Assembly (NCBI GenBank): GCA_027371535.1
Contig: DAHXMV010000001.1
Location: 172,825-236,824 of the forward strand
Length of the DNA stretch: 64,000 nt
Direction: 5' to 3'
Origin: Candidatus Amesbacteria bacterium
GTDB lineage: Bacteria; Patescibacteriota; Microgenomatia; CAZETR01; Amesbacteraceae
The notes under the pieces are model-generated. The model was not told where the DNA came from. It did not search any database and saw only the letters and a program-made list of their open reading frames with translations. Each line of letters opens with the position of its first letter. Position 1 is the stretch's first letter. The position numbers were made by a program, and so were the translations under genes. This document shows positions 3,289 to 48,599 of the stretch, one piece after another.

Positions 3289-3290
3289 AA

Positions 3291-13868: not shown

Positions 13869-13884
13869 ATTAATAAGAAAAATT

Positions 13885-17832: not shown

Positions 17833-17838
17833 GGCAGT

Positions 17839-18887: not shown

Positions 18888-19967
18888 TTAATTTTTTAAC
18901 ATCCGGACTTCGGCATCAACAAATTCTTCTATGTTGCCATCCAAAACACTGTCCGCCTGGGAAGTTTCCACTGCAGTTCTTAGATCTTTGACCATTTTAT
19001 AAGGGTGCAGGACATAAGAACGGATCTGGTTACCCCAGGAAGCAGCTTTATAGTTGCCTTTGAGACTTTTTTCCTCGGAACCGCGTTGTTCCTGTTTTAA
19101 CTGCCAAAGTTTGGCCTTTAAAAGAGACATGGCAATTTTACGGTTCTGTTCCTGAAAGCGCTGCGTCTGACACTGGACCGAGATACCGGTGGGTTTGTGG
19201 GTCAGCCTGACTGCCGTAGAAACCTTATTAACATTCTGGCCGCCATGACCGGTAGCCCGGAAGGCTTCAAATACTATGTCATCGGATTTAATTTCGATCT
19301 GGTCATCGATTTCAGGAAGTTCAGGCAATACTTCCACCAGGGCAAAAGAGGTCTGACGCAGATTATCGGCATTAAAAGGAGACTGTCTGACCAACCTGTG
19401 GGTGCCCCGCTCCCCCACCAAGAAACCGTAAGCATACGGACCGGTGACGGTGAAGGTTACCGACTTGAATCCGGCCTCTTCACCGGAATTTTGCTCCACC
19501 ACTTCCACTCCCCAACCCCGGGATTCACAAAATTTAAGGTACATTCTCAAAAGCATAGCAGACCAGTCCATGGCTTCTACCCCGCCCTGGCCGGCATGAA
19601 TGGATACAATGGCGTTATCAGCATCGTATGGACCATTTAAAAAGGTGGACATTTCGATTTTTTCCAGCTGCCGGGAAAGCCGGTGGACGTTTTTTTGCAT
19701 TTCTTCCGTTTCTCCCACCATGTCGATTAATTCCAGGGCTTCATCCAAATCTGTCCCCAGTTTGGCGATTTTTGTCTGTTCATCCTGCAAAAAAGCCAGC
19801 CTTTTCATAGTATTCTGAGCCCGGTCCCTGTCAGTCCAGAAGTCCGGGTGCAGGGTTTGGGCTTCCAATTCCCTTATTTGCCGTTCCCTGGTGACAGGGT
19901 CGAGTTTGGTCTGAATCTGACTGAAACGATTTCCCAGATCCAGAATTGTGGTTTTAAGCTCGTTCAT
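18888..19967 (-). CDS. prfB: peptide chain release factor 2
   Basis: SPF tripeptide ([10 protein letters not shown]) and GGQ motif ([18 protein letters not shown]). The start is set at MNELKTT (ATG at 19965-19967). The frame is continuous, so there is no programmed +1 frameshift. Confidence 0.85.
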
Positions 19968-24415: not shown

Positions 24416-24457
24416 ATGATTTATATTAACACAGGATAAAAAGAAAAATGTTAGAGA

Positions 24458-26966: not shown

Positions 26967-28442
26967 TTGAAGGATATGGTGGAAAAAAAGAGACCACTGA
27001 GGATATTGTTTGTCGGATCAGAAATGTGGCCTTACGCCAGTGCGGGGGGCCTGAGCCGGGTGATGTCTTATTTGCCCGGGGCGCTAATGAGGACAGGTGT
27101 GGATGCCCGGGTGATGATACCCAAATACGGGATGATTGATACCGAAAAATATAAGTTCAAGAAAGTGGTGATGGGATTAAAGGTACCCACGGGAAAAATT
27201 GACAAAGAGCCGATGATAATCTGTAATGTCCTTTCCCACCAGCTGCCGGGGTCGGCGCTCACCTATTTTCTGGAAAACAGAGAGTACTACGAACTCAGGG
27301 CCAATGTTTATCAATATGCGGATGATCATATCCGCTGGGGTTTACTGCAAAAAGGAGTCTGGGAGTTTATCCGGGCATATGATGATTGGGTGCCGGACAT
27401 CGTCCATTGCCATGACTGGCATACAGGCCTGACTGCGAACTTTTTTAAACAAACCTACAGAAAGATTGAAAAGCTGGATAATATAAAGACGGTTTTTACC
27501 ATTCATAATCTGGGTTTCCAGGCGCCGTACGACCACAGATTTGTGAATCCTCTTGATGAGGATAACGGTAACCGGGAGATACCGGATATACTGGACGGAG
27601 AGTTTGCAAAGCTGAATAGCATGCGCAGAGGAATCATATATTCGGATCTGGTGACCACGGTATCTCCTACATATACCAAGGAAATATTAACAAAAGATTA
27701 CGGAGAAGGTTTGGACGAGCTGTTAGCCTCGGTGAAATACAAGCTGGTGGGGATACTCAACGGTCTGGATTATGATGATTATGATCCCCTGACAGACGTA
27801 AATATCACACAAAATTACAAGAAAGGCGAATGGGTCAGCAGATTGAAGAATAAAACCGCCCTGCAACAACAGTTTAATCTGAAAAAGGGTAACGATATAC
27901 CCATGTTTGGTATCTCTTACCGTCTGACTGATCAGAAAGGACTGAACCTCGTTACCGATATTATGGAAACGATAATTAACGAATTTGATGCCCAGTTGGT
28001 GGTCAACGGTGACGGCGAAGCTATTTATAAAACTTATTTTCTGGAGCTGTATAAAAAATATCCCCAGAACATAGGGCTAAATCTGGTATACGATGAAGTA
28101 TTACCCAGACAAATATTTGCGGGAGCGGATTTTCTTTTACATCCATCAAAATTTGAGCCCTGCGGGATTGTTCAAATGGAAGCCATGGCTTACGGCTGTA
28201 TACCCATAGTCCGGGAAGTCGGCGGTCTGGCCGATACGGTGGTAGACGAAGAAAACGGATTCACCTTTTCGGAATTTAAACCGAGTTCACTGCTGTTAAC
28301 CATGGCCAGGGCGGTAGAACTGTTCAGGCACGGGGAAATAATCAAACACATGAGAGCCGCCTGTATGGAACAGGATTTTTCCTGGAAAATTGCCGCTGAA
28401 AAATATCTCAGAAATTATAAAAAGCTGGTGGGAACAAAGTAG
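26967..28442 (+). CDS. glgA: glycogen/starch synthase (GT5, ADP-glucose type)
   Basis: N-terminal ILFVGSEMWPYASAGGLSRVMSYLP is a K/S-x-GGL donor motif. 491 aa GT-B fold. Confidence 0.75.
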   Translation: MKDMVEKKRPLRILFVGSEMWPYASAGGLSRVMSYLPGALMRTGVDARVMIPKYGMIDTEKYKFKKVVMGLKVPTGKIDKEPMIICNVLSHQLPGSALTYFLENREYYELRANVYQYADDHIRWGLLQKGVWEFIRAYDDWVPDIVHCHDWHTGLTANFFKQTYRKIEKLDNIKTVFTIHNLGFQAPYDHRFVNPLDEDNGNREIPDILDGEFAKLNSMRRGIIYSDLVTTVSPTYTKEILTKDYGEGLDELLASVKYKLVGILNGLDYDDYDPLTDVNITQNYKKGEWVSRLKNKTALQQQFNLKKGNDIPMFGISYRLTDQKGLNLVTDIMETIINEFDAQLVVNGDGEAIYKTYFLELYKKYPQNIGLNLVYDEVLPRQIFAGADFLLHPSKFEPCGIVQMEAMAYGCIPIVREVGGLADTVVDEENGFTFSEFKPSSLLLTMARAVELFRHGEIIKHMRAACMEQDFSWKIAAEKYLRNYKKLVGTK

Positions 28443-28976
28443 ATGGACCGTAGGCCAATAATTTTAGTGTTAGGCCAAGCCGCGGGAATATTGGGATTAT
28501 TTTTTTTCACTCTGGTAATCCTGACCAGTCCTGTACGCTTAGTGCCTTTTTTAGACAATGCGAACCTGTTAATACATGAGTCAGGACATACATTTTTTGC
28601 CCCTTTGGGGGAATTTATGGGTTTTTTGGGCGGATCACTAACGCAGTTGCTGGTCCCGGCAGCCTTTGCTCTATATTTTTGGTATTCGGGACATAAATTC
28701 TCCCTGGCGGCCTGCCTGTTTTGGACAGGGGAAAATCTGATAAATATCAGTGTCTATATCCGGGATGCCAGATCACAGTTATTACCGTTAATTAATAACG
28801 GGATTAATGATTGGAACTGGATATTGGGCAAGCTGCAGATGTTACAGTTTGACCAAGTAATCGGAGGTATTGTCTATGATGCGGGTTTGGCGATCTGCCT
28901 GGGCAGTCTGGTTTGGGCAATAATTATTTTTTATAACCGCACCAAGGGCCTACGTCTGCAAAAAACTTCCACGTGA
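28443..28976 (+). CDS. hypothetical integral membrane protein with HExxH motif (putative membrane metallopeptidase-like)
   Basis: Four TM helices. LLIHESGHTF sits in the first predicted loop. The start ATG abuts the glgA TAG stop. Confidence 0.35.
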   Translation: MDRRPIILVLGQAAGILGLFFFTLVILTSPVRLVPFLDNANLLIHESGHTFFAPLGEFMGFLGGSLTQLLVPAAFALYFWYSGHKFSLAACLFWTGENLINISVYIRDARSQLLPLINNGINDWNWILGKLQMLQFDQVIGGIVYDAGLAICLGSLVWAIIIFYNRTKGLRLQKTST

Positions 28977-28989: not shown

Positions 28990-29907
28990 ATGGCTAACCA
29001 GGAGACTGCAGCTGAACAAAATATAGTCATATTCAATCGTGAATGCGGAAACACCTACCCGGAATCCGTGGAGCAGATAATGGTAGATTTATGGCCCGGG
29101 GCTATCGGATGCATGGGAATTGACCAGTTTGAAAAAAATCCACAGGCGGCTGCCGGATACAATCTGGTGGTCGGAGGGGGTGATGAAACCATCAGGAACG
29201 CTGCAAATAAAGCCAGACTTTACGGGTCAAAAATATATCCCCTGCACTTTGGTACAGCCGGATCCATACCTCAGGAATTTGGCTATAAAAGAACATTACA
29301 GGAGACCATCTATATGGCTAACCAGCAAACCCAAATTGAAGGGGTGAAAATGTACGTCCGCAGAATATTAAAACAGTTGAATAACAGGAAGGTTTTGGTA
29401 GAGATATCCCCGGGAACAGTAACTACAAGTGAGACTGAATATTTTGTCTGGTCGGCCGGTATCGGTAAAGGGGCCAAGGCCCTGGCTGATATCGACAGTT
29501 GGAGAAAAAAGGGCCTCAGGTATGAGATGAGGGTGTTAAGAGCTCTTTTGGAAGCGGCAGGCAGTTTCAGACAAAGCCGCGTACATGAGATGACTATTCC
29601 TGAAAAGGATCTACAAATACAGATTATAGAAGCCGAAATAATAAAAGATCCGTTCAATTCAATTGGCGGGGTGCCGATAGTGCCGAAAATACCGGGAAAT
29701 AAAGTCTTATTTATTGAAGCTCCGAATGAAAAAAACTTCACGGATAAATTTGTCAGAGTTTTTATAGACGGGGCTTTAATGATTTTCGGGAAACCCAGAA
29801 TGGCCGGGGGGAATAGAAATCTCCGAAACTTCAGGACAGGTGACTGTTTCAGGGAAACTAGAAAACATTCATGTGGATTCCAGTGTAAACATAAGACGCA
29901 GGGGTAA
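28990..29907 (+). CDS. putative lipid kinase, DAGK-catalytic-domain-like (YegS/NAD-kinase fold)
   Basis: NLVVGGGDETIRNAAN...YPLHFGTAGS resembles the GGDGT and P-x-GTxND signatures of diacylglycerol-kinase catalytic domains. The match is degenerate. Confidence 0.35.
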   Translation: MANQETAAEQNIVIFNRECGNTYPESVEQIMVDLWPGAIGCMGIDQFEKNPQAAAGYNLVVGGGDETIRNAANKARLYGSKIYPLHFGTAGSIPQEFGYKRTLQETIYMANQQTQIEGVKMYVRRILKQLNNRKVLVEISPGTVTTSETEYFVWSAGIGKGAKALADIDSWRKKGLRYEMRVLRALLEAAGSFRQSRVHEMTIPEKDLQIQIIEAEIIKDPFNSIGGVPIVPKIPGNKVLFIEAPNEKNFTDKFVRVFIDGALMIFGKPRMAGGNRNLRNFRTGDCFRETRKHSCGFQCKHKTQG

Positions 29908-29979
29908 TAAAATAGTTGTGATACCACAGCCAGACCCGGAAATCCTACCTAAATACCTGTTTTGGCGGAATACTGAATG

Positions 29980-30252
29980 CTAATAAGCTTCAAAAAAGGG
30001 AAAGTTCCTTACCGGTCCTGTTTTGACTTTAAAATCTTTAATCTTAATCGGGGAAGGAATGGTTTTACACCATTCAACAAACTTTTCCAAATCACTGTTT
30101 TGGCCTTCTACTGCCAAACTCACACCTCCGTCCGGTTCATTCCTTACCCAACCGGTAAGATTAAGATTTTTGGCTTTTTGACTGCAGCTATAACGAAATC
30201 CAACACCCTGCACCCGGCCGGTGACGAAAATATCCAAATGAATTTTGAGCAT
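29980..30252 (-). CDS. acyP: acylphosphatase
   Basis: VTGRVQGVGFR and GWVRNEPDGGV motifs. 90 aa. Confidence 0.8.
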   Translation of the reverse strand: MLKIHLDIFVTGRVQGVGFRYSCSQKAKNLNLTGWVRNEPDGGVSLAVEGQNSDLEKFVEWCKTIPSPIKIKDFKVKTGPVRNFPFFEAY

Positions 30253-30258
30253 CAGATT

Positions 30259-30714
30259 TCAGACCGCCTGTAAAATTTCCCCCGCATGACCTTTGGGAGT
30301 GACGTGGGGAAAAACCTTATTTATTATACCTTTGGGATCTATCAGGTAAGTCATTCGCCTGGTTCCGGTAAATTCCCGGCCCATAAATTTTTTAGTGCCC
30401 CAGGCACCGTAATTTTGAATGACGGATTTGGATTCGTCACTTAGGAGGGGGAAATTGAGCTTATATTTACCGGAAAATCCGGCATGAGAAGTGACAGAAT
30501 CTTTAGATATTCCCAACACTATAATTTTTTTATCGGCCAGATCTTTGAAACTGTCTCTGAATTCACAGGCTTCCACGGTACAACCCGGGGTATCATCCCT
30601 GGGGTAAAAATAGACTACCACCCACCTGCCCCGATAATCACTTAACCGATGCAGTTTACCATCCTGATCGGGCAGGGAAAAATCCGGGGCATGGGTACCG
30701 ACAGCCGGTTCCAT
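30259..30714 (-). CDS. bcp: peroxiredoxin, Bcp/PrxQ type
   Basis: VVVYFYPRDDTPGCTVEAC carries the peroxidatic Cys motif. 151 aa. Confidence 0.8.
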   Translation of the reverse strand: MEPAVGTHAPDFSLPDQDGKLHRLSDYRGRWVVVYFYPRDDTPGCTVEACEFRDSFKDLADKKIIVLGISKDSVTSHAGFSGKYKLNFPLLSDESKSVIQNYGAWGTKKFMGREFTGTRRMTYLIDPKGIINKVFPHVTPKGHAGEILQAV

Positions 30715-30726
30715 ATAATATTAAAC

Positions 30727-31320
30727 TCAGGATAACACAATTTTCATAATATAACCCGAACCTCTTAAAGTATAAATGAGAGGTTTATCATTAATACCAA
30801 CTTTAAGTTTACGCCGCAAATAACGAAATTAGGTTTCGATAATATTTGACATACCGGAATAATCATAATTCCAGATATTATCCATAATCCGCTGTTTGGT
30901 CAGGACTACATTTGGATGGCGCAGGAAGTACTCCAGTAAAGCAAATCCGCGGCCGGCGGCTTTTTTTCTGTCTAAAAATTTGCGGACTTTTTTAACCAAA
31001 CCGGTCAACGAAAAAGGCTTTGTCAGGTAATCATCCGCCCCGGCATTCAAAAAAGACACCGGCGAACAATGAAGATCTTCCGGAACCAATACCGGTACAG
31101 AAAAAGCAGGGTGTTCCCGACGCAGTCTGTGAAGGTAATCCAACAAATCTCCTCCGGCAATTTCCACATCGGCTATCAGCAGGTTGAATTTACCCACGCG
31201 GTTTACCGGAGGTAATTCATCCACCCGGAAGACCAGACAAATTCCGAAACCATCCGCCATCAAACCCCGCCTGATAAAATTAGCGATTTTGGCTTCCGAT
31301 TCGGCTACCAGAATATGCAT
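30727..31320 (-). pseudogene. OmpR-family response regulator interrupted by an in-frame TAA (at 30829-30831); receiver domain atypical
   Basis: The ORF track ends at ..DYSGMSNIIET. Translating the same frame past the TAA gives FRYLRRKLKVGINDKPLIYTLRGSGYIMKIVLS, the conserved C-terminal wing of OmpR-type DNA-binding domains (stop at 30727-30729). Confidence 0.6.
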
Positions 31321-31371
31321 ACAGGAAAAACAATTTAGGTGAAAAACTATGGGAATTCTGTGAGATTTTAA

Positions 31372-32568
31372 TCAACTCCACGAAATCAGATATACCACAG
31401 CTACCAAAAGTCCCAAACCCGCAGTTACCAAAAACCCGGTACTTAAAGACAGGGCGGTAATTACAAAACCCATGACCAGAGGTCCGGCAGTCTGACCAAT
31501 ATCCATCACAGAGCTGAGGGCACCTAAAAAACTACCCAGTTCATTTTGTCTGGAAAGTTCAGCTACCCGGGCGCTGGTGGCCACGGTCCCAAAAGACATC
31601 CCCAACCCAAATATCAATCCTATACCTACAAGAACAAAAAAATTACCCGAGACAGTAAACAAAGCGGCTGACAGACTTAAAACAAGCAGGCCGAATACAA
31701 TCTGCAAACGTTTATCAATCCGGTCTGCCAACCGCCCGAAAAACGGCTGGGTCAGGGCTATGCTAAAAACCTGAAGTGAAAAAATCAGGCCTATTTCAGC
31801 CGAAGCTATGCCTTTCGACGCCAGATAGAGCGGCAGAAAGGTTTCGTACACCCCGTATATAAAGTAGGTGATTAATTGAACCAGCGAGGTCATAAAAACC
31901 GGGCGGCTGTGACCAAAATCAACCAGGGTCAGTATCAGACTGCGGATATTAAAGCCGCCTGTTATCCGGATAGCAGGCGCTGTTTGACGGGGAATTAAGA
32001 CGGTAAATATCAATATCGGCAGAGAAAGCAAAAAGGCTGCCAAATAAACCAGCCGGAAATTTGCCAGATGCCCCCAATAGGCAAAATACTGGATGATAAA
32101 ACCTCCCAAAAGCGGAGCCAGCATCCGGCCAAAAAGGGTGGAGGATGAGTACAGACCCAGACCTTCAGCCCGGCGGTGCTCATAGACACTGACTATCAAG
32201 GCTGCGGCAATCGGGCCTAAAATGGCCGTGGCCAACCCGTGAAAAAACCTGACCGGCAGGAGCCACCAGGGATTGGTAACCAGGAGATAGAGCAGAGGGG
32301 CCAAAGTAAAAATAAAAGCTGCGACCAGCAGCAGTTTCTTTTTTCCCAGTTTATCGGCCAAAAAGCCGACCGGAAAGCTGAATAAAATTCCCGCCAAGGG
32401 CGAAAGTGCCGATAATATGCCCAGTAATGAAGTGTCTGCCCCCAGACTTTTGGCAAACAGCGGCAGAACGGGATTTTTGGAGATGGTGGTGGAAAAAATC
32501 CCGAAAAAACCAATCAGACAAAGCAAATAAATAATTTGTTTATTATGATCCGAGGTTTTTTCCGACAC
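31372..32568 (-). CDS. MFS transporter
   Basis: Twelve TM helices. MFS loop motif GFLADKLGKKKLL between TM2 and TM3. Confidence 0.7.
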   Translation of the reverse strand: MSEKTSDHNKQIIYLLCLIGFFGIFSTTISKNPVLPLFAKSLGADTSLLGILSALSPLAGILFSFPVGFLADKLGKKKLLLVAAFIFTLAPLLYLLVTNPWWLLPVRFFHGLATAILGPIAAALIVSVYEHRRAEGLGLYSSSTLFGRMLAPLLGGFIIQYFAYWGHLANFRLVYLAAFLLSLPILIFTVLIPRQTAPAIRITGGFNIRSLILTLVDFGHSRPVFMTSLVQLITYFIYGVYETFLPLYLASKGIASAEIGLIFSLQVFSIALTQPFFGRLADRIDKRLQIVFGLLVLSLSAALFTVSGNFFVLVGIGLIFGLGMSFGTVATSARVAELSRQNELGSFLGALSSVMDIGQTAGPLVMGFVITALSLSTGFLVTAGLGLLVAVVYLISWS

Positions 32569-32701
32569 AGTCAGATTATGCCAGCTTTATATATCAGAAT
32601 AAATAACCTATAATTATTTATGGTTAAAAAAGAAAAAGATGACCTTTCCAGAATTTTTAAAATCTTTTGGGAAAACCCAATCATTAAACCGGTGAAATAC
32701 A

Positions 32702-32941
32702 CTATTTCTCGAGGTCTTTTTTCATTTCTTCAAATTGTTTTTTATCAATTTCCCCTTTGGCATAGCGCTCCTTCAGAATATCCAAGGGAGTTTTTTCGGG
32801 TCCTTCTGTCCATGGATGGTGACCCGAATACATGAATAATCTGTAAAACAGAAATATTAACACCAGCCAAAATAGTACAGCGGGGATAAGGCTCAATAAA
32901 CTCCAACCTCCCCAAGGATAATACCAGCTATATCTCATCAT
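32702..32941 (-). CDS. SHOCT-domain small membrane protein
   Basis: Two TM helices followed by LKERYAKGEIDKKQFEEMKKDL, the SHOCT consensus. Confidence 0.55.
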   Translation of the reverse strand: MMRYSWYYPWGGWSLLSLIPAVLFWLVLIFLFYRLFMYSGHHPWTEGPEKTPLDILKERYAKGEIDKKQFEEMKKDLEK

Positions 32942-33129
32942 AGTTTCCGATTAAACCACAACAAACTGAGAAAAGGCTGACAGATGATTTGAATATTCCG
33001 GAATAGAATTACTAAAACCAGGAAGGAACAAATCGCCGAAGGCGGTGAATGATTCAGGGCAAAAACAATTAGTGGCTGTTGCCATACGACTAACGGCCAG
33101 AAAAACGGGAAAATACCGGATCACTCAAC

Positions 33130-33552
33130 TTATGGGCGGGGTTGCTTCTGGGTTTCGAAAACTTCGCGGAGAGTTTTCCTGGCTTCAGCAACTATTTTCG
33201 GACTCACATGATCCGGTAAACGGACTACAATACAGACGGGATTCTTACCCTGGAGCAAAAATTGGAAAGATCTATTTGAGCCCATAAACAAAACATTTTT
33301 ATTTTGGTGATGAATTACAGTCACCGGGACATCCGTGCCATACCGCCGACTAAACAGCTCTTCCGCTTCTTCCAGGACGCATTCTTCCAGGGCGGCAATA
33401 AATAAATTTTCGGGAAGTATTTCCTGCCGGTAGACTAAGGTATTGTCCGGATCAAGATCGTAAAGCTCCAAAACGGAATTTACCGACCCTTTGACCCGGT
33501 TTTTCCATTCTTCATCTGCCACATCGGCCAATAAAACATCAAGATCGGTCAT
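33130..33552 (-). CDS. hypothetical protein
   Basis: A 140-aa acidic ORF with coding-like composition. No family recognised. Confidence 0.4.
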   Translation of the reverse strand: MTDLDVLLADVADEEWKNRVKGSVNSVLELYDLDPDNTLVYRQEILPENLFIAALEECVLEEAEELFSRRYGTDVPVTVIHHQNKNVLFMGSNRSFQFLLQGKNPVCIVVRLPDHVSPKIVAEARKTLREVFETQKQPRP

Positions 33553-33584: not shown

Positions 33585-35147
33585 TTACTCTTCGAACACC
33601 TGAGTCTGAAAGACGGAAATGACCGACTGCGGATCTTTGTAACAGTCAGCAGGCAATCCGGCCTTTTGCAGGCAAAGCTGTTCCAAAAAGGCGGTTTCAT
33701 CCCAGTGATTTTCCGCGGCTACCTGGGGGAGAAAAGTGCCTGCATGCCGGCCATTTTGAATTACCACCCCATCCCGGCCATAACGGATCATCCGCCAGGA
33801 AGAAATTTGTTTGGGCGGGGTCATGACGGATAATTCAATGTGAACCCGGTCCAGATCGCTTTTTGGCAGCGGATCAAATCTGGGATCCTGAGCAGCGGAT
33901 TTAACAATAGTCCGCTGAATAACCCGGTATAAAGGATCCGCGGGTTCAAACTCACCGATACAGCCGCGCAGTTGTCCGTTTTGGGTAAGAGTCACAAATA
34001 CCCCCAGGGGTTTTAACAGATCGGGGTTTTTGGGTTTTTCCGAACGGAATTTTTTACCGTTTAAATAATCCGCCAGGGCCTGCCGGGCTATTGTAACCGC
34101 TTCTTTCTCGGCAGGCCGGGAGAGGATGATTTTCGGCGATTCCAATTGATCTTTTACCCCAACAACCGCACCATATCCGACTACCCGGGCAGGATCACCT
34201 CCCGGAATATCTCCGGAATTGGCATATTTAACCAACTGAAAATCGGTAATATTTAATTTTGCCGCCACCAATAAGGCGATTTTTATGGCTTCCTGACCGC
34301 AGGCACTGGTAGCCAGATTTGAATAATTTTTGTCAGCTTGTTTATCGATGACCTGTGTAAATTTCCCAACCTCTCCCGTAAGGATGGCTGCCAGAGTCTG
34401 GTGGTCAACGATATTTGCCGTTTGCCGGTCGGGATAATGCGACAGGTCAGTACTGACCACCAGTAAAGTATCGTCATCAAAATTATCGGCAATGGCAGCA
34501 GCTAATTGATCCCGCAGGGTTTCTGAGGGCTGGCTGACTAAAATGGGAACTATGGTAAAGTCTTTCATTACAGACTGCAAAAAGATCAACTCCATTTCCA
34601 GAGAATGTTCATTTAAATGAACCGAGGCATCTGACCGGATGCCGATAGCGGGATTGATCAAATATGCTGCCAAAGCGGCATTGACGGGGATATCCCCCAG
34701 CGGGGTGCGCCAGACACCGTCGGGAAAAACAGCTGCCTCGGTAAAAGCATAATTATGGCTGGGACCTAAAAGGATGATTTTGGAATATTTAAACCCTTGA
34801 AGCTGGTCAAAACCGGCCGCAGCCACATAACCAGCATATTCAATACCGGCATGGGGAACAATCAGGATCCGGGGTTTTTGGGTGACGGTTTTTTTGGCCC
34901 CGGCCAAATCAATACGCATGACTGCCCGGAGGGATATGGGGTCGCCGGGATAAAAAGAACCCGAAACGGCGGGGTCTCTGATAACTGCGGCCGCATCCGG
35001 GTTTTGAGAGTTCGGAGCAAAACTGAGACCGGACTGGGGAGAAATGGTATTCCGGGGAGAGTTTTTTTTAAAAATTAAAAACCATATCAGAAAGACGGCG
35101 ACAACCAAAACCGACAAAACAGCTAAAGGTTCCCTGGAAGCCCCCAT
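33585..35147 (-). CDS. membrane-anchored fusion of MEMO1-like (AmmeMemoRadiSam system protein B) and AMMECR1 (protein A) domains
   Basis: N-terminal TM helix. The MEMO-like region is ILVPHAGIEYAGYVAAAGFDQL...IILLGPSHNY...VVSTDLSHY. The C-terminal AMMECR1 region carries LGVFVTLTQNGQLRGCIGEF. Confidence 0.65.
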   Translation of the reverse strand: MGASREPLAVLSVLVVAVFLIWFLIFKKNSPRNTISPQSGLSFAPNSQNPDAAAVIRDPAVSGSFYPGDPISLRAVMRIDLAGAKKTVTQKPRILIVPHAGIEYAGYVAAAGFDQLQGFKYSKIILLGPSHNYAFTEAAVFPDGVWRTPLGDIPVNAALAAYLINPAIGIRSDASVHLNEHSLEMELIFLQSVMKDFTIVPILVSQPSETLRDQLAAAIADNFDDDTLLVVSTDLSHYPDRQTANIVDHQTLAAILTGEVGKFTQVIDKQADKNYSNLATSACGQEAIKIALLVAAKLNITDFQLVKYANSGDIPGGDPARVVGYGAVVGVKDQLESPKIILSRPAEKEAVTIARQALADYLNGKKFRSEKPKNPDLLKPLGVFVTLTQNGQLRGCIGEFEPADPLYRVIQRTIVKSAAQDPRFDPLPKSDLDRVHIELSVMTPPKQISSWRMIRYGRDGVVIQNGRHAGTFLPQVAAENHWDETAFLEQLCLQKAGLPADCYKDPQSVISVFQTQVFEE

Positions 35148-36387: not shown

Positions 36388-38283
36388 TCAGGGGACGCAG
36401 GCAGAAGTGCCGGTAAAGCTCTTTGTACCGTCCGGGCGGGTGCAGTAAGTTCCGACATTGACCAACCTCTGACTGCCACAGGTAACATATACCTGGGGGC
36501 TACTTAGCCAACTGGTAGAGCACAACTGGTTATTGGCGGGGCACCAGTTATACCCACTGAAACCATAACCGGTATACCAGGTGCTCGAAGTACATCCGGG
36601 TGAAGCAGTGACGTTGACAGTGACATAATTTGACCATGGTATTTGGACAGGATTGATACGGGTTTCTCCGCTGACAGCTTCGTTTGGCACCCAGATTCTA
36701 AAAGGAGAATAATAAGTTCCGACTCCACCGGGGTTTGATACTCTGACCAAGCCATTATCTACCCACAGCCACTTACGGCCATTACCAGATTCCAGATAAC
36801 CGGTATAGGGGGGAGAAACTCTCAGATAATATCCCTGATTTTGGCCGACGGAAACCGCGGAAGAATAATTAACCCCGTCGGAGCTGACCTGGACAGTTAA
36901 CTGCGGGTTCTGAAAATAATTTTTTAACTTCATGACAAAACTGGGATTTTGGATGGTGTCATCCCAGCAGTCGCTATCAGACGCACACATCGGCGAGTAT
37001 TGGTTTGCCGCACCGGCATAGCGATTAAAAGTTTTTGAGATCATCTGGACCAAACCGATACCTTTGACATAATACCAGGATTCTCTGTTGGCCATATCGG
37101 TATAAGCAGTCTTGAATCCTTCATAGTAGTCTATCCGCAGGGCTTCACCGGAATAATTAAACTGACCCGGGCCATAATTAATATTCACATAATCTTTATC
37201 GACACGAATTTTCCAGGAGCCCAGATAGTTCGGATCGGGGTTGGTGACCAACATCGTCGGGACGTAAGGAATTCCGGCCTGTACAGGATAATAAGAAGTC
37301 CCCTTCTGGTAATTAATGTATGGCAAAGCAGCTGTTTTGGGAGCCAGATTGTATGAGGGGTACTGAGTACCGGTATTTTTGTAAACGTGCGAACCTAACT
37401 CGCCGGAAAAATTGATGTCATGCCAGCCCCAGGAAGTGTCCGGCCGGCTGTAATTGGTGTCAGCAAAACCCCAGATAAAATTATTGTAACCGGGTATGGG
37501 AGAATAATAGAAGTTGGGGTCGGTAATAAACCAGCGCAGATCACGTTTGCCATCGTTGACTCCGGGAATGACGGCCGCCCAGTAAAGGTTGGGGTTGGTT
37601 TTGGTATAACGCCAGGGAATGATATTGATGCCGCTTTTGGAAATTTCCTGCTCCATCTGAATCCGGGTGGTCCCGGTAGTACCGGTCAAATTGTCGGTAC
37701 TATCATAAAGATAGGTATAGCCCGGTTTATAAACAATATAATCAGTCATGTTATAAACCGGCCGGGAGTTGGTCAGTGTGCCGGTAAAGGTAATTCTGGC
37801 GGGATTGCTCCAGTCATAAGCAGTCCCGGCCGGCCGGACCCGAAAATTAGTTGAGAAGTTATTTGGCCATGGGCCATCCAGATCAATCCGGGCAATTCCC
37901 TGCTGATTTGACCGGTAAGTCCCCCAGTTGGCGGTGGTAATCCAGCCGCTACAATTATTACCCGCCCCGTCACATCTTTGGGATAAAACATCAAAATTGG
38001 CGGAACACGGCTGGCCACCGGAGGTCACATGAACATAGTATTTTGTAGGCACGCCAGATGGCAGGGAAATACTGCCGGACGGGGTCTTGCCATCTGCGGA
38101 GACCTGCAAAAGGATATAACCGCAAGAGGCAGCCCGGCTTTTGAATATCTGTTTGCGGAAGACGCCAAAAGTGATTCCCAAAGCCAAAATCACCAGCAGA
38201 GATATCAAAAAGAAGATTTGTTTGGAGAATTCGGATCTTTTGACCACTAGACAGAGAGTGACATATTTTTTATAACCAGTCAA
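36388..38283 (-). CDS. large secreted/extracytoplasmic protein (N-terminal signal-anchor), Tyr/Trp/Gly/Asn-rich, Cys-containing; function unknown
   Basis: TM at residues ~25-45. The rest is hydrophilic and aromatic-rich, with Cys clustered at both ends. Confidence 0.45.
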   Translation of the reverse strand: MTGYKKYVTLCLVVKRSEFSKQIFFLISLLVILALGITFGVFRKQIFKSRAASCGYILLQVSADGKTPSGSISLPSGVPTKYYVHVTSGGQPCSANFDVLSQRCDGAGNNCSGWITTANWGTYRSNQQGIARIDLDGPWPNNFSTNFRVRPAGTAYDWSNPARITFTGTLTNSRPVYNMTDYIVYKPGYTYLYDSTDNLTGTTGTTRIQMEQEISKSGINIIPWRYTKTNPNLYWAAVIPGVNDGKRDLRWFITDPNFYYSPIPGYNNFIWGFADTNYSRPDTSWGWHDINFSGELGSHVYKNTGTQYPSYNLAPKTAALPYINYQKGTSYYPVQAGIPYVPTMLVTNPDPNYLGSWKIRVDKDYVNINYGPGQFNYSGEALRIDYYEGFKTAYTDMANRESWYYVKGIGLVQMISKTFNRYAGAANQYSPMCASDSDCWDDTIQNPSFVMKLKNYFQNPQLTVQVSSDGVNYSSAVSVGQNQGYYLRVSPPYTGYLESGNGRKWLWVDNGLVRVSNPGGVGTYYSPFRIWVPNEAVSGETRINPVQIPWSNYVTVNVTASPGCTSSTWYTGYGFSGYNWCPANNQLCSTSWLSSPQVYVTCGSQRLVNVGTYCTRPDGTKSFTGTSACVP

Positions 38284-38298
38284 GGGAAGAACATAAAC

Positions 38299-43373: not shown

Positions 43374-45310
43374 AAGACCAAGGCAAAACCAATCCGATGC
43401 GGACTGCCCCGGGGCCAATGGGCCGGGGTTTCGGGGCTATGGGCAGACCGGTAGAAAAAGCCAAAGATTTCAGGGGGACATTAAAAAGACTTCTGGCGTA
43501 TTTTGCCCCCGAAAAAAACAGGCTGCTGGTTATTGTCACAGCTGCTGTTTTCGGAACTATTTTTAATATCGTCGGACCCAAAGTCCTGGGTCTGGCAACG
43601 ACCAAACTGTTTGATAACCTGATTGCCAGTTTTATCATCCAAGCCAGAAACGTCGCCATTAAGAAAGAATTGCTCGTGAATCCCTACCTGTCCATTCATG
43701 CGTCACCCATACCGGGAATTGAATTCGGTTATATAGGCAAAATCATGCTGATATTACTCGGGTTATACATCATCAGCGCCGTGTTTATTTTCATCCAACA
43801 ATATCTGATGGCCGGGGTAGCCCAAAGAACCATCTATAAACTCAGAAAAGAGGTGGATGAAAAACTGTCCAGGTTACCCCTCTCATATTTTGACGGCCGG
43901 ACTCACGGGGAGATTTTGAGCAGGGCGGTGAACGATATGGACAATATCAGCTCTACATTACAACAAAGTATCGCCCAACTGATCACGTCTATACTGACAG
44001 TCCTGGGGGTTTTGGTAATGATGCTGTCCATCAGCTGGCTGTTAACAATCATTGTCCTGTTAACCCTGCCCTTGTCAATGGTAATTGTGGTGGGAATAGC
44101 CAAACGCTCACAGGATTATTTCCGCAAACAACAGGGCAGCCTGGGGGAGCTAAACGGCCATGTGGAAGAGATGTATACCGGCCACAAGATTGTCAAAGCC
44201 TTCGGCCATGAAGAAAAAGCAATTTCGGAATTTGGGGTGTTAAATGATAAATTATATGACGCGGGCTGGCGGGCCCAGTTCGTATCGGGAATCATCATGC
44301 CACTGATGAGATTTGTCGGCAATATAGGCTATATCCTGGTAGCCATTGCCGGCGGAGTGATGGCCACCCAGGGGACTATTTCAATCGGTGATGTACAGGC
44401 TTTTATCCAATATTCAGCCCAGTTTACCCAACCGATTGCCCAGCTGGCCAATATTGCCAATGTCATCCAGTCAGCCATTGCCTCGTCAGAAAGGGTATTT
44501 GAATTATTAGACGAGCAGGAACAGGTTCCGGAAGCAGGACATCCGCTAACCATTACCAACCCCCGGGGGGCAGTGGAATTCAAGCACGTCAGATTTGGTT
44601 ACAGTCCCGATAAAATTTTACTGGAAGACATGAATATTGACGTCAAGCCCGGCCAAATGATAGCCATTGTGGGACCGACAGGTGCGGGGAAGACGACTCT
44701 CATCAATCTATTGATGCGTTTTTACGAAGTGAACGGGGGGCAGATTCTGGTAGACCGTGTGGATATTACCAAAATGAGGCGCGGGGATTTGAGGCGGCAT
44801 TTCGGAATGGTGTTGCAGGATACCTGGCTCTTTCACGGAACTTTAAAGGATAATATTGCCTACGGACGGGAAAATGCCACCGAAGACGAAATTGTAAAGG
44901 CTTCCACGGCCGCGTACGCCGATCATTTCATCAGGACCCTACCCGAAGGTTATAACCTGGTATTAAATGAAGAGGCCACGAATATTTCGCAGGGGCAAAA
45001 ACAACTGCTTACCATTGCCAGGGCCTTTTTAGCGGACCCGGAAATCCTGATTCTGGACGAAGCAACCAGCAGCGTGGATACCAGGACCGAGCAGCTGATC
45101 CAGTCGGCCATGGAAAAGCTGATGCACGGACGGACCAGTTTTGTGATTGCCCACAGGTTATCCACGATCAAAAATGCGGACCTGATACTGGTCATGAATC
45201 ACGGAACCATTATTGAAAGCGGTTCACATGATACGCTGCTTTCCAAAAAGGGTTTTTATGCAGATTTGTATAACAGCCAGTTTCAGCATGCCGAAGAAGT
45301 AACAGCTTAA
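43370..45310 (+). CDS. ABC exporter, fused permease/ATPase subunit (heterodimer partner 2)
   Basis: Six TM helices. GPTGAGKTT, ISQGQKQLLTIARAF, ILILDEATSSVD. Overlaps the partner by 4 nt. Confidence 0.8.
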   Translation: MKDQGKTNPMRTAPGPMGRGFGAMGRPVEKAKDFRGTLKRLLAYFAPEKNRLLVIVTAAVFGTIFNIVGPKVLGLATTKLFDNLIASFIIQARNVAIKKELLVNPYLSIHASPIPGIEFGYIGKIMLILLGLYIISAVFIFIQQYLMAGVAQRTIYKLRKEVDEKLSRLPLSYFDGRTHGEILSRAVNDMDNISSTLQQSIAQLITSILTVLGVLVMMLSISWLLTIIVLLTLPLSMVIVVGIAKRSQDYFRKQQGSLGELNGHVEEMYTGHKIVKAFGHEEKAISEFGVLNDKLYDAGWRAQFVSGIIMPLMRFVGNIGYILVAIAGGVMATQGTISIGDVQAFIQYSAQFTQPIAQLANIANVIQSAIASSERVFELLDEQEQVPEAGHPLTITNPRGAVEFKHVRFGYSPDKILLEDMNIDVKPGQMIAIVGPTGAGKTTLINLLMRFYEVNGGQILVDRVDITKMRRGDLRRHFGMVLQDTWLFHGTLKDNIAYGRENATEDEIVKASTAAYADHFIRTLPEGYNLVLNEEATNISQGQKQLLTIARAFLADPEILILDEATSSVDTRTEQLIQSAMEKLMHGRTSFVIAHRLSTIKNADLILVMNHGTIIESGSHDTLLSKKGFYADLYNSQFQHAEEVTA

Positions 45311-46362
45311 ACTTTCTCCAGCAGCCTCCAGAAATTTAAAACCCAGGCCCCCGGTGAATAATCACCGGATAATGAAGAATAAAAAACAAGTTCGGGAGTT
45401 TGGGTGGTAACATAAGCAGGGACCACCGGATCCGGCCTGGCATTGGGCCAATTACAATCCGGACAGGTTATTAATTGTTTATTTCGAATTTCGTTTTCCC
45501 GGATTTTGTTTTCAGGTTTCCAGCCGCACCTGGGGCAAATAATTTCACGACAGGAAGCATGCTCATGGGAGTCTCCCCCGTTTTGCCCCGAACTGCCTAA
45601 AAAGGCGCCGTTGGACGGACCACAGCCGGAACCAGATAAATCAATGCTACCGCCGATATTCATCATTATTTTTTCCGCTTGCAGCCCGGTAATGTAGGGG
45701 TTAATTTTATTTTTATTTGCCAATTCCAAGATTTGGGAAACCGGAGCCATGGCTTCTATTTTTTTACGGCATCGTTCTTTTATTTCACCGGATTCAACCT
45801 GATTCCAGATTTCGGCCGGTAGCGCAATATATAACCTGCCCGTAGAGTAAAGGTTAGTATTTTCGGAAAAAGTTGCAGACAAAGGTGTCATTTCGATATC
45901 GGTTGGGTTTTCCAGAAACGGAATACCGGGATAGTCCGACAATAACCTGAAACGGTTTAAAAGACCGACAACATCCTTAATACTTTCACGGTGACGGATA
46001 CCGTAAGCTTCAAAGGTTATAACACCGGAATCATTGGTGACCAAAAAAATATTTACCCGATTTTCGGGATAGGCATATCCCGGACTAACCCACACCACAA
46101 TCCGTTTTTGATTTTCGGGAGTTTCTTTTACCAACCTCTCGGTATCCAAAGCTGCCCAAGTAGAAGCAAAATATTTTTCCGTGGGGCTTAGTTCTGGAGG
46201 AAAATGATCATAGTACCATACATTATCAGGATCAATTGGTTTTTCTGTTATCAGGGCTTCGGTATGTAAAGAGGCGGCGTCTTCGGCGGCTTTCGAAAAA
46301 TCACCGGTATAAAAAAGGGTATAGAATGCGGGGCGGGTTTCGACTGACATAATTTCCTGCAC
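45307..46362 (-). CDS. hypothetical protein with C-terminal Cys4 zinc-ribbon (CPRCG...CPDCN)
   Basis: 351-aa ORF. No family recognised. Two CxxC pairs lie near the C-terminus. Confidence 0.4.
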   Translation of the reverse strand: MQEIMSVETRPAFYTLFYTGDFSKAAEDAASLHTEALITEKPIDPDNVWYYDHFPPELSPTEKYFASTWAALDTERLVKETPENQKRIVVWVSPGYAYPENRVNIFLVTNDSGVITFEAYGIRHRESIKDVVGLLNRFRLLSDYPGIPFLENPTDIEMTPLSATFSENTNLYSTGRLYIALPAEIWNQVESGEIKERCRKKIEAMAPVSQILELANKNKINPYITGLQAEKIMMNIGGSIDLSGSGCGPSNGAFLGSSGQNGGDSHEHASCREIICPRCGWKPENKIRENEIRNKQLITCPDCNWPNARPDPVVPAYVTTQTPELVFYSSLSGDYSPGAWVLNFWRLLEKV

Positions 46363-46545
46363 GGGAAAAATAGGGGTTGTTAGTTTTCTGGCTTTAACAG
46401 TTGCGGCACAGCCGGGGAATTTCGCCCCGATTCCTTAAACACAACCTGTAGAGTTACTATAAATAAATCTAAGTTATTGTCAATAATTGTTAATTGGGAA
46501 ATAGAAATGACTAGGCCACTATACATGCAGAACGGTTGAGAAGTA

Positions 46546-47562
46546 ATGTCAGGTAGGTACAATGGCTGCTACATGCGCGGTTTCAAAATACTTCCGGTGA
46601 TGTCGTTATCCCGTATATCCACTTTGTCCAGGGATGGCTTGAAGCGGTTGGAGTGGATTGATTGGTACTATACCCACGAGAAGAATGCTGAAGGCACTTG
46701 CAGACATTTCAGTCTGTCCAAATCAGTGTTTTACCGGTGGTTAAACCGGTTTGACAAGTACAACCTGGCTACGCTGGAGTTTGATACCCAAACCAGGAGG
46801 CCAGAACATCTGAGAAAGATGACTACTCCAAGAGAGGTTATCAGTTTGGTATGCCAGATTCGGAAAGACGATCCAGAAAAATCAAAGTATGAAATACAGG
46901 CTGAACTCAGAGAAATACATGGAGTAACTTTGGGTTACAACACCATCCAAAAGATTATCAACCGAGACCCCAGACTAGCCATTTTGAAGAAGAAAATCAA
47001 ACGTCACAAAAATCACAAGATTGACCGGATGCCAGCTGCATATGATCTCAAAGACCGGGATGTGGGGTCTTTGGTTCAGGTAGACACCAAGCACTATTAT
47101 GTCCTGGGAGAGAGGTATTACATATTTGCGGCAGTAGACTGTAAATCCAGATATGCCTATACCTACGCCTACACCAGAATCTCTTCCAGTTCTGCCCAGG
47201 ATTTTTTAACCAGAGTAAAAGCTTATTTTCCTTTTCCCATGTCAGCCATTAATACAGACAACGGATCAGAATATCTTTTGTATTTTCACAAATTAACTAA
47301 AGATTTAGGCATACCCCATTACTTTTCCCGGCCCCGAACCCCCACCATGAACTCCAGGGTGGAAAGACTAATTCAAACGCTGGAGTATGAATTTTTAAAC
47401 TATCAAACCATTAGTCCGGAGATTTCCCAGGTGAGAGAAATGTGTGAAAAATTTAATACAAAATACAATCAACAGAGGTATCACCGGGCTTTAAATTATC
47501 AAACACCACAGATGTATGTTAAAACCTATTTACAGAAAGGAGGTCAACCGTTCTCTATCTAG
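46546..47562 (+). mobile_element. IS481-family-like insertion sequence: single DDE transposase ORF (HTH + rve integrase core); element ends not determined
   Basis: HTH region SKSVFYRWLNRF. DDE triad context LVQVDTKHYY / FAAVDCKSRYAY / INTDNGSEY. C-terminal YNQQRYHRALNYQTP. Flanked by ~180 bp and ~375 bp of non-coding DNA. Terminal inverted repeats could not be confirmed by eye. Confidence 0.6.
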
Positions 47563-47939: not shown

Positions 47940-48599
47940 TTACCAGGGACGGATCCGGCCGGCAAACCAGAAATTGCCGGTTGGATGAGAACGGGTCACC
48001 AATTCATACAATTCTTTGGCGGGAAATTCGGGTTCTCTGGGAGCCTGCGGACCTCCCATGTCCGTTTTTACCCAACCCGGGTCAAAAGCCGATACTGTGA
48101 TGTTTTTAAGACGATCTGCCAGGGTTTTGAGATACATATTGAGGGCGGTCTTGCTGATCCTGTAAGCCGGACAAACTCCGTTATCAAATCGGGTCAGGGA
48201 AGACATCATTGAGGAAACGGCAACTATCTGGCCATCGGACTTAATCAGAGGCAATATTCCCTCCGTAAAAGCGATCGTTCCGATTAGATTTATTTCCAAA
48301 ACCCGGCGGAGTACAGAGATATCGATCCGGTTTTCATCCGGTTCAAAACTGGCACCGGCGCAATTTATTAAAACGTCAATTTAGGGATATTTTTTAGTAA
48401 TATTTTGTACAGCTGAAGAAATACTTTCGGGATCGCTTAAATCCGTTACAAAATGGACATAGTTTGGGTGTTTGAGGTTTCTGTTTTCAGATGTCGAGGC
48501 ACCCAAAACCAACCAACCTTCAGCCAGAAATTTTTTGGCGGCAGCTAAACCGATTCCCCGGCTGGAACCGGTAATAAGAACTTTATTTTCTGTGTTCAT
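47940..48599 (-). pseudogene. short-chain dehydrogenase/reductase (SDR) interrupted by an in-frame TAA at 48381-48383
   Basis: The N-terminal part has TGSSRGIGLAAAK (Rossmann). The same frame continues past the TAA as IDVLINCAGASFEPDE... and then into the catalytic part ...SSLTRFDNGVCPAYRISKTALNMY (YxxxK). The ORF track shows this as two pieces. Confidence 0.6.

What the first reader, a model, noticed from the sequence alone, without database searches (positions are those of the whole stretch)
30727..31320. OmpR-family response regulator disrupted by a single in-frame TAA; no cognate histidine kinase adjacent
Reading the same frame through the TAA at 30829-30831 restores the winged-helix C-terminus (FRYLRRKLKVGINDKPLIYTLRGSGYIM). 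The stop replaces the position that is normally the His of the V-H-I segment. The receiver domain is also atypical: ES replaces the N-terminal acidic pair, and LVPED replaces the conserved T/S. No sensor kinase is nearby. This is either a recent pseudogene, a sequencing/assembly error, or, less likely, a read-through site. A second in-frame TAA occurs in the SDR gene at 48381.
Basis: seen in the sequence. Interest (0 to 1): 0.5.

Follow-up and report, generated by a model that had tools for sequence, protein, structure and literature searches.

The report
Recently broken orphan response-regulator pseudogene
This is an ordinary dead gene: a stray, already degenerate OmpR-type regulator in a candidate-phyla-radiation bacterium that was recently cut short by a genuine TAA stop codon, with no sign of an altered genetic code.

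Summary
On the minus strand, a 163-codon ORF (30829..31320) ends in TAA. The same frame continues 33 codons to TGA (30727..30729). The joined product matches Response_reg and Trans_reg_C across the stop.

The stop replaces a Tyr, not a His (Y in 95 of 119 homologues, H in 21), inside the DNA-recognition helix. The receiver is a pseudo-receiver (Asp to Ser8, Thr to Val79).

No kinase or kinase remnant lies anywhere in the 64 kb. The three closest intact homologues I looked up each sit 2-5 nt upstream of a kinase. The nearest syntenic relative has SHOCT-MFS-Bcp-AcyP with no regulator between MFS and Bcp.

TAA is the commonest true terminator here (32 of 58 genes), and RF2 is encoded in the window. 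The two in-frame TAAs align to different residues: Tyr here, mostly Gln in the short-chain dehydrogenase (SDR) gene. Separate assemblies carry the same bases.

Sequence after the stop is as conserved as sequence before it, so the lesion is recent.

Verdict: a recently inactivated orphan atypical regulator. It is not recoding and probably not an assembly error. Interest is low.

The parts
30829..31320 (-). Translated part of the regulator gene: 163 codons plus the premature TAA. Identical to database protein P0001.
30829..30831 (-). Premature TAA (codon 164), inside the recognition helix of the winged helix. It replaces a Tyr, so the likely change was TAT/TAC to TAA. The third codon base is + strand position 30829.
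30727..30828 (-). Untranslated remainder: 33 codons (rest of the recognition helix plus the wing hairpin) and the original TGA stop at 30727-30729. Still about as similar to homologues as they are to each other.
30982..31314 (-). Receiver domain (residues 3-113). It is a pseudo-receiver: E7-S8 instead of E-D, and V79-P80 instead of T-A. D51, Y98 and K101 are kept. Conserved alpha5 residues are lost (E107G, A110K, R111K, A114K, R117D).
   Evidence: definition from PMC12632262
30954..30955 (-). Junction of the 29-residue in-frame deletion, between residues 122 and 123. The deletion removes the interdomain linker end and the four-strand beta-sheet of the effector domain (M. tuberculosis PhoP residues about 141-177).
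30748..30954 (-). Remnant of the Trans_reg_C winged-helix domain (residues 123-191), interrupted by the TAA.
31372..32568 (-). Upstream neighbour, an MFS transporter. In the nearest syntenic relative (L018) its stop is 3 nt from the Bcp start, with no regulator between.
30259..30714 (-). Downstream neighbour, a Bcp-type peroxiredoxin. It starts 12 nt after the regulator's original TGA, in the position where the three homologues examined carry a histidine kinase.
47940..48599 (-). Second gene broken by TAA: a short-chain dehydrogenase (SDR). The TAA is at 48381-48383, at a column that is mostly Gln. The rest is 60-73% identical (two more distant picks 51-54%) to intact 215-236-aa homologues. 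Its own true terminator (47940-47942) is also TAA.
18888..19967 (-). prfB, release factor 2 (SPF and GGQ motifs; TIGR00020 436.7 bits against a cut-off of 370). By established knowledge this factor terminates at UAA and UGA. It argues against TAA being a sense codon.

Best explanation
The locus is a recently inactivated gene for an orphan, atypical OmpR/PhoB-family response regulator. The host is a Patescibacteria (CPR) bacterium, probably a Gottesmanbacteria-like member of the Microgenomates, that uses the standard code.

**Inferred history.**
1. A regulator copy, whose relatives all sit in regulator-kinase operons, came to lie without its kinase between an MFS transporter gene and a peroxiredoxin gene.
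2. Freed from phosphorylation control, its receiver domain diverged into a pseudo-receiver. It lost the Mg-binding Asp, the Thr and the conserved alpha5 residues.
3. A 29-residue in-frame deletion removed the beta-sheet platform of the DNA-binding domain.
4. The helix-turn-helix and wing nevertheless stayed conserved, so the protein probably still worked as a phosphorylation-independent DNA binder for a long time.
5. Recently a single third-position change (TAT/TAC Tyr to TAA) put a stop in the middle of the recognition helix.

**Consequence.** Translation now ends at codon 164. The 163-residue product lacks half the recognition helix and the whole wing, so it cannot bind DNA.

**Shown.** The stop, the domain matches, the lost residues, the deletion, the absence of a kinase, the synteny without the regulator, TAA as a true terminator, and identical sequence in separate assemblies.

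**Inferred.** The order of events, past function, and present non-function.
For: **The stop and the domains.**
- The Pfam matches span the stop.
- The stop column is Tyr in 95 of 119 homologues. It is also Tyr in M. tuberculosis PhoP, the closest solved structure.
- DNA-contacting residues of this family lie in the recognition helix and the wing (PMC3960148).

**Degeneration of the gene.**
- 25 of the 60 columns that are at least 90% conserved are lost in this gene. They include D8 (100% D), G59, T79, E107, R111, R117 and E125. None of the 119 homologues has the 29-residue gap.
- Identity relative to homologue-homologue identity is 0.57 for the receiver, 0.85 for the effector before the stop and 0.94 after it.
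- A relative-rate test gives 47-57 changes unique to this gene against 14-22 in its relatives.
- The gene is a singleton. The next best hit is 38% identical among 5.8 billion clustered proteins and 1.84 billion representatives.

**No kinase, and a lineage-specific position.**
- Homologues P0006, P0032 and P0017 each sit 2-5 nt upstream of a 330-341-aa HisKA+HATPase_c kinase.
- There is no kinase or kinase remnant in the window.
- L018 has SHOCT-MFS-Bcp-AcyP at 66/64/64/55% identity in the same order. Its MFS-to-Bcp gap is 3 nt and it has no regulator there.
- GC and GC3 of the gene are within 1 SD of the window's genes, so it is not a fresh foreign insert.

**TAA is a real terminator and the base call is reproducible.**
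- TAA ends 32 of 58 genes. TAAT and TAAA are the commonest terminator contexts in the window, and the two internal stops have those same contexts.
- RF2 is present.
- Identical bases occur in an ENA MEGAHIT contig and a Logan contig.
Against: - No read-level data were available. A consensus error or a segregating intact allele cannot be excluded.
- The strong conservation after the stop is also what read-through or an error would give.
- Two in-frame TAAs in about 60 genes is a little high, although 35-44% of random nonsense changes here would give TAA.
- The relative-rate test assumes the gene branches inside the CPR group. Near-equal distances to all homologues (39-43%) cannot confirm that.
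- Insertion here versus loss in the relative rests on one syntenic contig.
- Two intact 200-203-aa regulators (P0390, P0439) also lack most of the beta-platform, so the deletion alone does not prove loss of function.
Confidence: 0.77

Rival explanations
1. The TAA is not in the organism's genome, or not in most cells. It is a sequencing or consensus artefact, or a minority variant picked by the assemblers, and the gene is an intact 197-codon atypical regulator.
For: - The post-stop sequence is fully conserved and there is no frameshift over 594 nt.
- All assemblies may derive from the same or sibling read sets, so they are not fully independent.
Against: - Assemblies made separately give identical bases over the regulator: the ENA MEGAHIT contig and the Logan contig. 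The NCBI contig carries the same 163-aa product.
- For the SDR stop, a further ENA assembly (ERZ27233565) also agrees.
- Two independent substitution errors that both create stops in conserved genes within 64 kb would be unusual for short-read consensus.
Confidence: 0.09
2. The truncated 163-residue product is the functional form. It would be a stand-alone pseudo-receiver with a helical tail that acts through protein-protein contacts rather than DNA binding.
For: - Single-domain receivers and pseudo-receivers with non-phosphorylation roles are common (PMC12632262).
- The ORF is called as a protein in three sources.
- AlphaFold2 models residues 1-70 with pLDDT near 90.
Against: - The receiver is the least conserved part of the gene, with an identity ratio of 0.57.
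- Its alpha4-beta5-alpha5 region is modelled poorly (residues 84-95 have pLDDT below 50).
- The retained 40 residues of a broken winged helix have no evident role.
- No homologue of this truncated form exists among 1.84 billion representatives.
- Conservation of the 33 codons after the stop shows that selection acted on the full-length form until recently.
Confidence: 0.07
3. UAA is read through at these sites, by programmed read-through, a suppressor tRNA or an ambiguous code, so that full-length regulator and SDR are made.
For: - There are two in-frame TAAs in otherwise well-kept genes, both preceded by CC and followed by (T/A)TT.
- Near-cognate decoding of UAA is known to insert Tyr or Gln (my own knowledge). 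These are the residues expected at the two sites.
Against: - TAA is the commonest true terminator (32 of 58 genes), in the same +4 contexts (T 11, A 10 of 30).
- The SDR gene itself ends at a TAA exactly where all 16 homologues end.
- RF2 is encoded in the window.
- The two sites need different amino acids.
- All 16 SDR homologues carry a sense codon at that column.
- The window has no tRNA gene and no Rfam element near either site.
- No bacterial UAA reassignment turned up in the literature search.
Confidence: 0.03

Closest known systems
Canonical OmpR/PhoB-family regulator-kinase pairs of Patescibacteria (for example P0006 in GCA_023473235.1, P0032 in GCA_038230655.1, P0017 in GCA_964561945.1)
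   Same: They are the best sequence matches (36-38% by BLASTP, 41-43% over aligned columns). They share the domain order receiver plus Trans_reg_C and the motifs 'AGADDYLTKPF', 'ALLEYF' and 'RGSGY'.
   Different: They are 224-226 aa and intact, with all five receiver active-site residues and a complete beta-platform. Each is followed within 2-5 nt by a HisKA+HATPase_c kinase. The window gene lacks all of these.
Atypical, phosphorylation-independent orphan OmpR/PhoB regulators: HP1043/HsrA (Helicobacter pylori), ChxR (Chlamydia trachomatis), NblR (cyanobacteria)
   Same: Each has a degenerate receiver that lacks active-site residues, has no partner kinase and has a conserved winged helix (PMC5253667, PMC8345958, PMC3960148). 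NblR is the top NCBIfam model for this gene (108 bits). Before the stop arose, this gene probably worked in the same way.
   Different: Those proteins are intact, keep the four-strand beta-sheet of the effector domain (ChxR) and are conserved, or essential, in their lineages. This gene scores far below the NblR cut-off (300 bits), lacks the beta-sheet, is interrupted and is a singleton.
M. tuberculosis PhoP (PDB 3R0J, 5ED4), the closest solved structure by sequence
   Same: The receiver aligns over query 2-123 and the effector over query 125-193. A Tyr sits at the stop position ('NVVESYVSYLRRKI').
   Different: PhoP residues about 141-177 (linker plus beta-platform) have no counterpart here. 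PhoP is phosphorylated by PhoR.
Short intact OmpR-like regulators P0390 (203 aa) and P0439 (200 aa)
   Same: They also lack most of the beta-platform (21-25-residue gaps at the same place) and align to the query in one stretch.
   Different: They keep the last beta-strand ('I-x-L-S/T-x-x-E'), most of the receiver active site (P0390 all five residues; P0439 has T for the second acidic residue) and an open reading frame. They are only 33-35% identical to this gene, so the deletions are probably independent.

Membership tests
OmpR/PhoB-family response regulator | Receiver domain (PF00072) above the gathering score | tested here: met
   36.5 bits against 30.2, residues 3-113
OmpR/PhoB-family response regulator | Winged-helix Trans_reg_C domain (PF00486) above the gathering score | tested here: met
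   65.6 bits against 26.2, residues 123-191, but only when the TAA is read through
OmpR/PhoB-family response regulator | [quoted passage not shown] | tested here: not met
   A 29-residue gap replaces the beta-sheet. It is absent from all 119 closest homologues and corresponds to PhoP residues 141-177.
OmpR/PhoB-family response regulator | Uninterrupted reading frame that encodes both domains | tested here: not met
   TAA at codon 164, with the same bases in separate assemblies
Named regulator equivalogs (NblR, RppA, PhoB, OmpR, YycF and others) | Score above the NCBIfam curated cut-off | tested here: not met
   The best is NblR at 108.3 bits against a cut-off of 300. All 25 listed models are far below their cut-offs.
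Phosphorylatable (true) receiver domain | All five active-site residues: DD, D, T/S and K (PMC12632262) | tested here: not met
   The second acidic residue is S8 (D in 100% of 119 homologues) and the T position is V79 (T in 99%). D51 and K101 are kept.
Pseudo-receiver / atypical response regulator (definition of PMC12632262) | [quoted passage not shown] | tested here: met
   Two of the five are missing. It is not an aspartate-less receiver, because D51 is present.
Two-component operon | A cognate histidine kinase encoded adjacent or nearby | tested here: not met
   No HisKA/HATPase_c domain in any ORF of 90 aa or more in 64 kb. tblastn with the partner kinases of homologues gives a best E of 0.14. 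The rest of the genome could not be examined.
Stop-codon reassignment (TAA as a sense codon) | The codon is no longer used as a terminator | tested here: not met
   TAA ends 32 of 58 genes. These include SecA, and the SDR gene at the exact homologous C-terminus.
Stop-codon reassignment (TAA as a sense codon) | In-frame occurrences align to one consistent amino acid | tested here: not met
   Tyr in the regulator. Mostly Gln, also Glu, His, Arg, Lys and Thr, in the SDR gene.
Stop-codon reassignment (TAA as a sense codon) | Loss or alteration of the cognate release factor, and a tRNA that reads the codon | tested here: inconclusive
   An RF2 with SPF and GGQ motifs is present. The window has no tRNA genes. 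RF1 and the full tRNA set lie outside the window.
Programmed stop-codon read-through | The stop is conserved in orthologues, with a conserved stimulatory context | tested here: not met
   All 16 SDR homologues have a sense codon there. The regulator has no orthologues to compare. There is no Rfam element nearby, and the contexts match ordinary terminators.

The most novel reading that the evidence does not exclude
In this CPR bacterium, UAA termination is leaky enough that near-cognate Tyr or Gln tRNAs restore useful amounts of full-length regulator and SDR. The two in-frame TAAs would then be tolerated, or even used as low-expression switches, rather than marking dead genes.
Probability: 0.03. 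Interest if true: 0.6.

Novelty: new member of a known kind. Interest (0 to 1): 0.12.

Why it matters
It matters little beyond annotation. The locus should be annotated as a pseudogene of an orphan atypical OmpR/PhoB regulator, not as a 163-aa 'response regulator' protein as the databases now hold it.

It gives a small worked example of how a two-component regulator decays in a reduced CPR genome. The partner kinase is absent, the receiver has degenerated while the DNA-binding helices were kept, and a nonsense mutation came last.

It also provides a negative control for genetic-code screens. Two in-frame TAAs in one 64-kb window can look like recoding, yet they are explained by ordinary recent nonsense mutations.

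Tried and rejected
- **Genome-collection scan with the MFS neighbour, to find related bins.** It returned only 19-30% identical transporters from unrelated phyla. It found no close relative and not the source genome itself.
- **Context look-ups of the 60-61% MFS homologues P0243 and P0245.** There is no regulator next to MFS, but these loci are not syntenic either, so they say little. Only L018 was informative.
- **Same-frame neighbouring ORF pairs separated by one stop.** The pairs checked were 17155-18318, 36388-38937, 52404-55877, 26967-28976, 23813-26920 and 29980-30714. All are distinct adjacent genes (FtsE, SecA, SOD, AcyP and others), not split genes.
- **The M20 peptidase at the window edge.** It looked truncated but simply runs off the window.
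- **Promoter and terminator scan of 29800-33200.** Counts were no higher than in shuffles.
- **Repeat search around the regulator for insertion scars.** It gave only short chance matches.
- **Rfam.** Nothing lies near either TAA.
- **Shine-Dalgarno check.** Only 3 of 54 genes have an SD-like motif, so its absence upstream of the regulator says nothing.
- **AlphaFold2 on a 15-sequence alignment.** Mean pLDDT was 72.6, with the effector at 50-72. That is too shallow to decide whether the platform-less domain folds, so I ran no fold search.
- **A shared 'CC-TAA-WTT' context at the two stops.** I rejected it as a signal. It amounts to four matching flank positions, and true terminators share the same +4 bases.
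- **The 29-residue deletion as proof of pseudogenisation.** I softened this after finding two intact short regulators with similar gaps.

Full report
**1. The observation**

On the minus strand, an ATG at 31320 opens a 163-codon ORF that ends in TAA (+ strand 'tta' at 30829-30831). The same frame then runs 33 more codons, FRYLRRKLKVGINDKPLIYTLRGSGYIMKIVLS, to TGA at 30727-30729.

The joined 197-residue product matches Pfam Response_reg (36.5 bits, residues 3-113). It also matches Trans_reg_C (65.6 bits, residues 123-191), and that match spans the stop. A homologue aligns by tblastn across the stop in a single piece, E = 3.5e-47. The finding is real and is not a chance match.

The second in-frame TAA, in a short-chain dehydrogenase (SDR) gene at 48381-48383, is also real. 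Its adh_short match (1.1e-33) spans that stop.

**2. What the gene looks like against its relatives**

The only identical database entry is the truncated 163-aa ORF itself (P0001). It is a one-member cluster seen in NCBI, ENA and Logan assemblies. Everything else is at most 38% identical by BLASTP, and 222-231 aa long among the closest twenty. The best hits are from Patescibacteria and Levyibacteriota. An exhaustive HMMER search of 1.84 billion representatives also leaves it a singleton: one hit at E below 1e-30, which is itself.

Against 119 homologues:
- The stop column is Tyr 95, His 21, Leu 2, Cys 1. The lesion is most simply TAT/TAC to TAA.
- 25 of the 60 columns that are at least 90% conserved are lost here. 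These include the second acidic residue (D to S8, D in 100%), the Thr (to V79, T in 99%), G59, and the alpha5 residues E107, A110, R111, A114 and R117.
- A 29-residue gap removes the N-terminal beta-sheet of the effector domain. No homologue among the 119 shares it.

Against M. tuberculosis PhoP, the closest solved structure, residues about 141-177 have no counterpart. PhoP also has Tyr at the stop position.

By the definition in PMC12632262, the receiver is a pseudo-receiver. [quoted passage not shown]

The stop lies within the recognition helix. DNA-contacting residues of this family sit in that helix and in the wing that follows it (PMC3960148). The 163-residue product therefore cannot be a DNA binder.

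**3. Context**

No ORF of 90 aa or more anywhere in the 64 kb carries HisKA or HATPase_c. tblastn with kinases finds no remnant (best E = 0.14).

In contrast, the three closest intact homologues I looked up each lie 2-5 nt upstream of a 330-341-aa HisKA+HATPase_c kinase. Here the gene is followed after 12 nt by a Bcp peroxiredoxin and is preceded by an MFS transporter.

The closest MFS homologue (66% by BLASTP) lies on a JGI contig, L018. That contig has the same four genes in the same order:

| Gene | Identity to the window gene |
|---|---|
| SHOCT | 66% |
| MFS | 64% |
| Bcp | 64% |
| Acylphosphatase | 55% |

In L018 only 3 nt separate MFS and Bcp, and no regulator lies between them. The regulator is therefore specific to this lineage at this locus. 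It was either inserted here without a kinase or lost in the relative. Its GC and GC3 are native-like, and I found no insertion scars.

**4. Timing**

I scaled each segment's identity to homologues by how similar the homologues are to each other.

| Segment | Ratio |
|---|---|
| Receiver | 0.57 |
| Effector before the stop | 0.85 |
| 28 alignable residues after the stop | 0.94 |

The helix-turn-helix and wing were kept under constraint while the receiver drifted. This is the pattern expected of a phosphorylation-independent atypical regulator. The part now untranslated has not begun to decay, so the stop is recent.

A relative-rate test gives 47-57 changes unique to this gene against 14-22 in relatives (p at most 7e-4). 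The gene is nearly equidistant from all homologues, so the tree topology the test assumes is not secure.

Two intact regulators of 200-203 aa (P0390, P0439) have independent 21-25-residue gaps at the same place. A platform-less form may therefore be viable. I do not count the deletion alone as proof of death.

**5. Error, recoding or read-through?**

*Assembly error.* The ENA MEGAHIT contig (ERZ27233560, 153 kb) and a Logan contig (SRR13170412, 16 kb) are base-identical to the window over the gene. The 320-kb NCBI contig carries the same 163-aa product. The SDR stop is likewise identical in Logan and in a second ENA assembly, ERZ27233565. An assembler-specific error is excluded. A read-level check was not possible.

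*Recoding.*
- TAA is the commonest terminator in the window: TAA 32, TGA 18, TAG 8 of 58 genes.
- The SDR gene's own terminator is TAA, exactly where all 16 aligned homologues end.
- SecA ends at TAA right after a Cys/His-rich tail, the usual SecA C-terminus by my own knowledge.
- Release factor 2 is encoded at 18888..19967, with SPF and GGQ motifs, and scores above the prfB cut-off.
- The two internal TAAs align to different residues: Tyr in the regulator; Gln in 8 of 16 SDR homologues, then Glu, Arg, His, Lys and Thr.

*Chance of two TAAs.* Given this window's codon usage, 35-44% of random single-base nonsense changes yield TAA. Two out of two is unremarkable, with p about 0.13-0.19. The +4 bases (T and A) are those of the window's ordinary TAA terminators.

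*Other split genes.* No other gene in the window is split. All same-frame neighbouring ORF pairs are distinct genes.

**6. The SDR gene**

It is 60-73% identical (two more distant picks 51-54%) to intact 215-236-aa homologues, including one from Candidatus Gottesmanbacteria RBG_16_43_7. It keeps every column that is invariant in that alignment. In the Gottesmanbacteria contig the gene lies next to SecA. In the window, SecA is 4 kb away, beyond a low-GC stretch. An IS481-family element (46522-47561) flanks the SDR gene on its other side.

This is a clean, very recent nonsense lesion (most simply CAA to TAA) in a region that has been rearranged.

**7. Conclusion**

The most likely account (about 0.77) is an orphan, atypical OmpR/PhoB regulator that was recently killed by a Tyr-to-stop mutation in its recognition helix.

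Rival explanations:
- Consensus error or minority allele, about 0.09.
- A functional truncated pseudo-receiver, about 0.07.
- Read-through or recoding, about 0.03.

It belongs to the OmpR/PhoB family by domain content. It fails the tests for a complete effector fold, a true receiver, an intact frame, a partner kinase and every named equivalog. It worked, in the past tense, most like HP1043, ChxR or NblR.

This is an ordinary pseudogene and scores low on interest.

Noticed in passing
window 46522-47561: An IS481-family insertion sequence. The transposase ORF is 46546..47562 (+) (rve + HTH_32; NCBIfam IS481 173.6 bits). The 18-nt terminal inverted repeats are at 46522-46539 and 47544-47561. A Logan contig breaks inside its right end, which suggests the element is multi-copy. 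It lies next to the broken SDR gene.
   Followed up: partly
window 38950-39147 (-): A 65-codon ORF in a 480-nt gap between genes. It looks like the C-terminal tail of an rve-type transposase ('YNHKRIHTTLKMPPTKF') and is probably another decayed mobile-element relic.
   Followed up: no
window 46374-46447 (-): An AdoCbl-II (cobalamin) riboswitch (Rfam RF01689, 44.3 bits against 36.5). It lies just upstream of a 351-aa ORF (45307..46362) that has no Pfam or NCBIfam match. That ORF is a candidate for an unrecognised B12-related protein.
   Followed up: no
window 18888-19967 (-): prfB (RF2) is encoded in one continuous frame. I saw no in-frame UGA or +1 frameshift site of the kind most bacteria use for autoregulation.
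   Followed up: partly
window 48000-52300: A low-GC stretch (0.37-0.41, against 0.45 elsewhere) with an MliC-like lipoprotein and several ORFs without family matches. It sits between the SDR gene and SecA. In Gottesmanbacteria RBG_16_43_7 SecA and the SDR gene are adjacent, so this stretch looks like an insertion.
   Followed up: partly
window 61149-62957 (-): A class II aminoacyl-tRNA synthetase (OB fold plus tRNA-synt_2) fused to a C-terminal DUF2000 domain, 602 aa in all.
   Followed up: no
window 9189-13814 (-): A 1541-aa protein that fuses GT2 and GT4 glycosyltransferase domains. It lies within a 14-kb glycosyltransferase, PIG-L and VanZ gene cluster (about 140-14265).
   Followed up: no
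window-wide (54 gene starts): Only 3 of 54 genes have a Shine-Dalgarno-like 4-mer at -20..-4. This genome seems to make little use of SD-led initiation.
   Followed up: partly
window 33585-35147 (-): AmmeMemoRadiSam system proteins B (Memo) and A (AMMECR1) are fused into one 520-aa protein.
   Followed up: no
L018 3-173 (-) (JGI 3300037086 Ga0334812_028331): The syntenic relative that lacks the regulator between MFS and Bcp has the start of a canonical receiver-domain gene ('IVEDD...LLDVMMP'). It is divergently oriented just upstream of SHOCT, at the contig edge.
   Followed up: no
P0390, P0439 (database proteins, not in the window): Two intact OmpR-like regulators of 200-203 aa with largely canonical receivers lack beta-strands 1-3 of the effector platform. 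This is a rare short architecture, and I do not know whether it is functional.
   Followed up: partly
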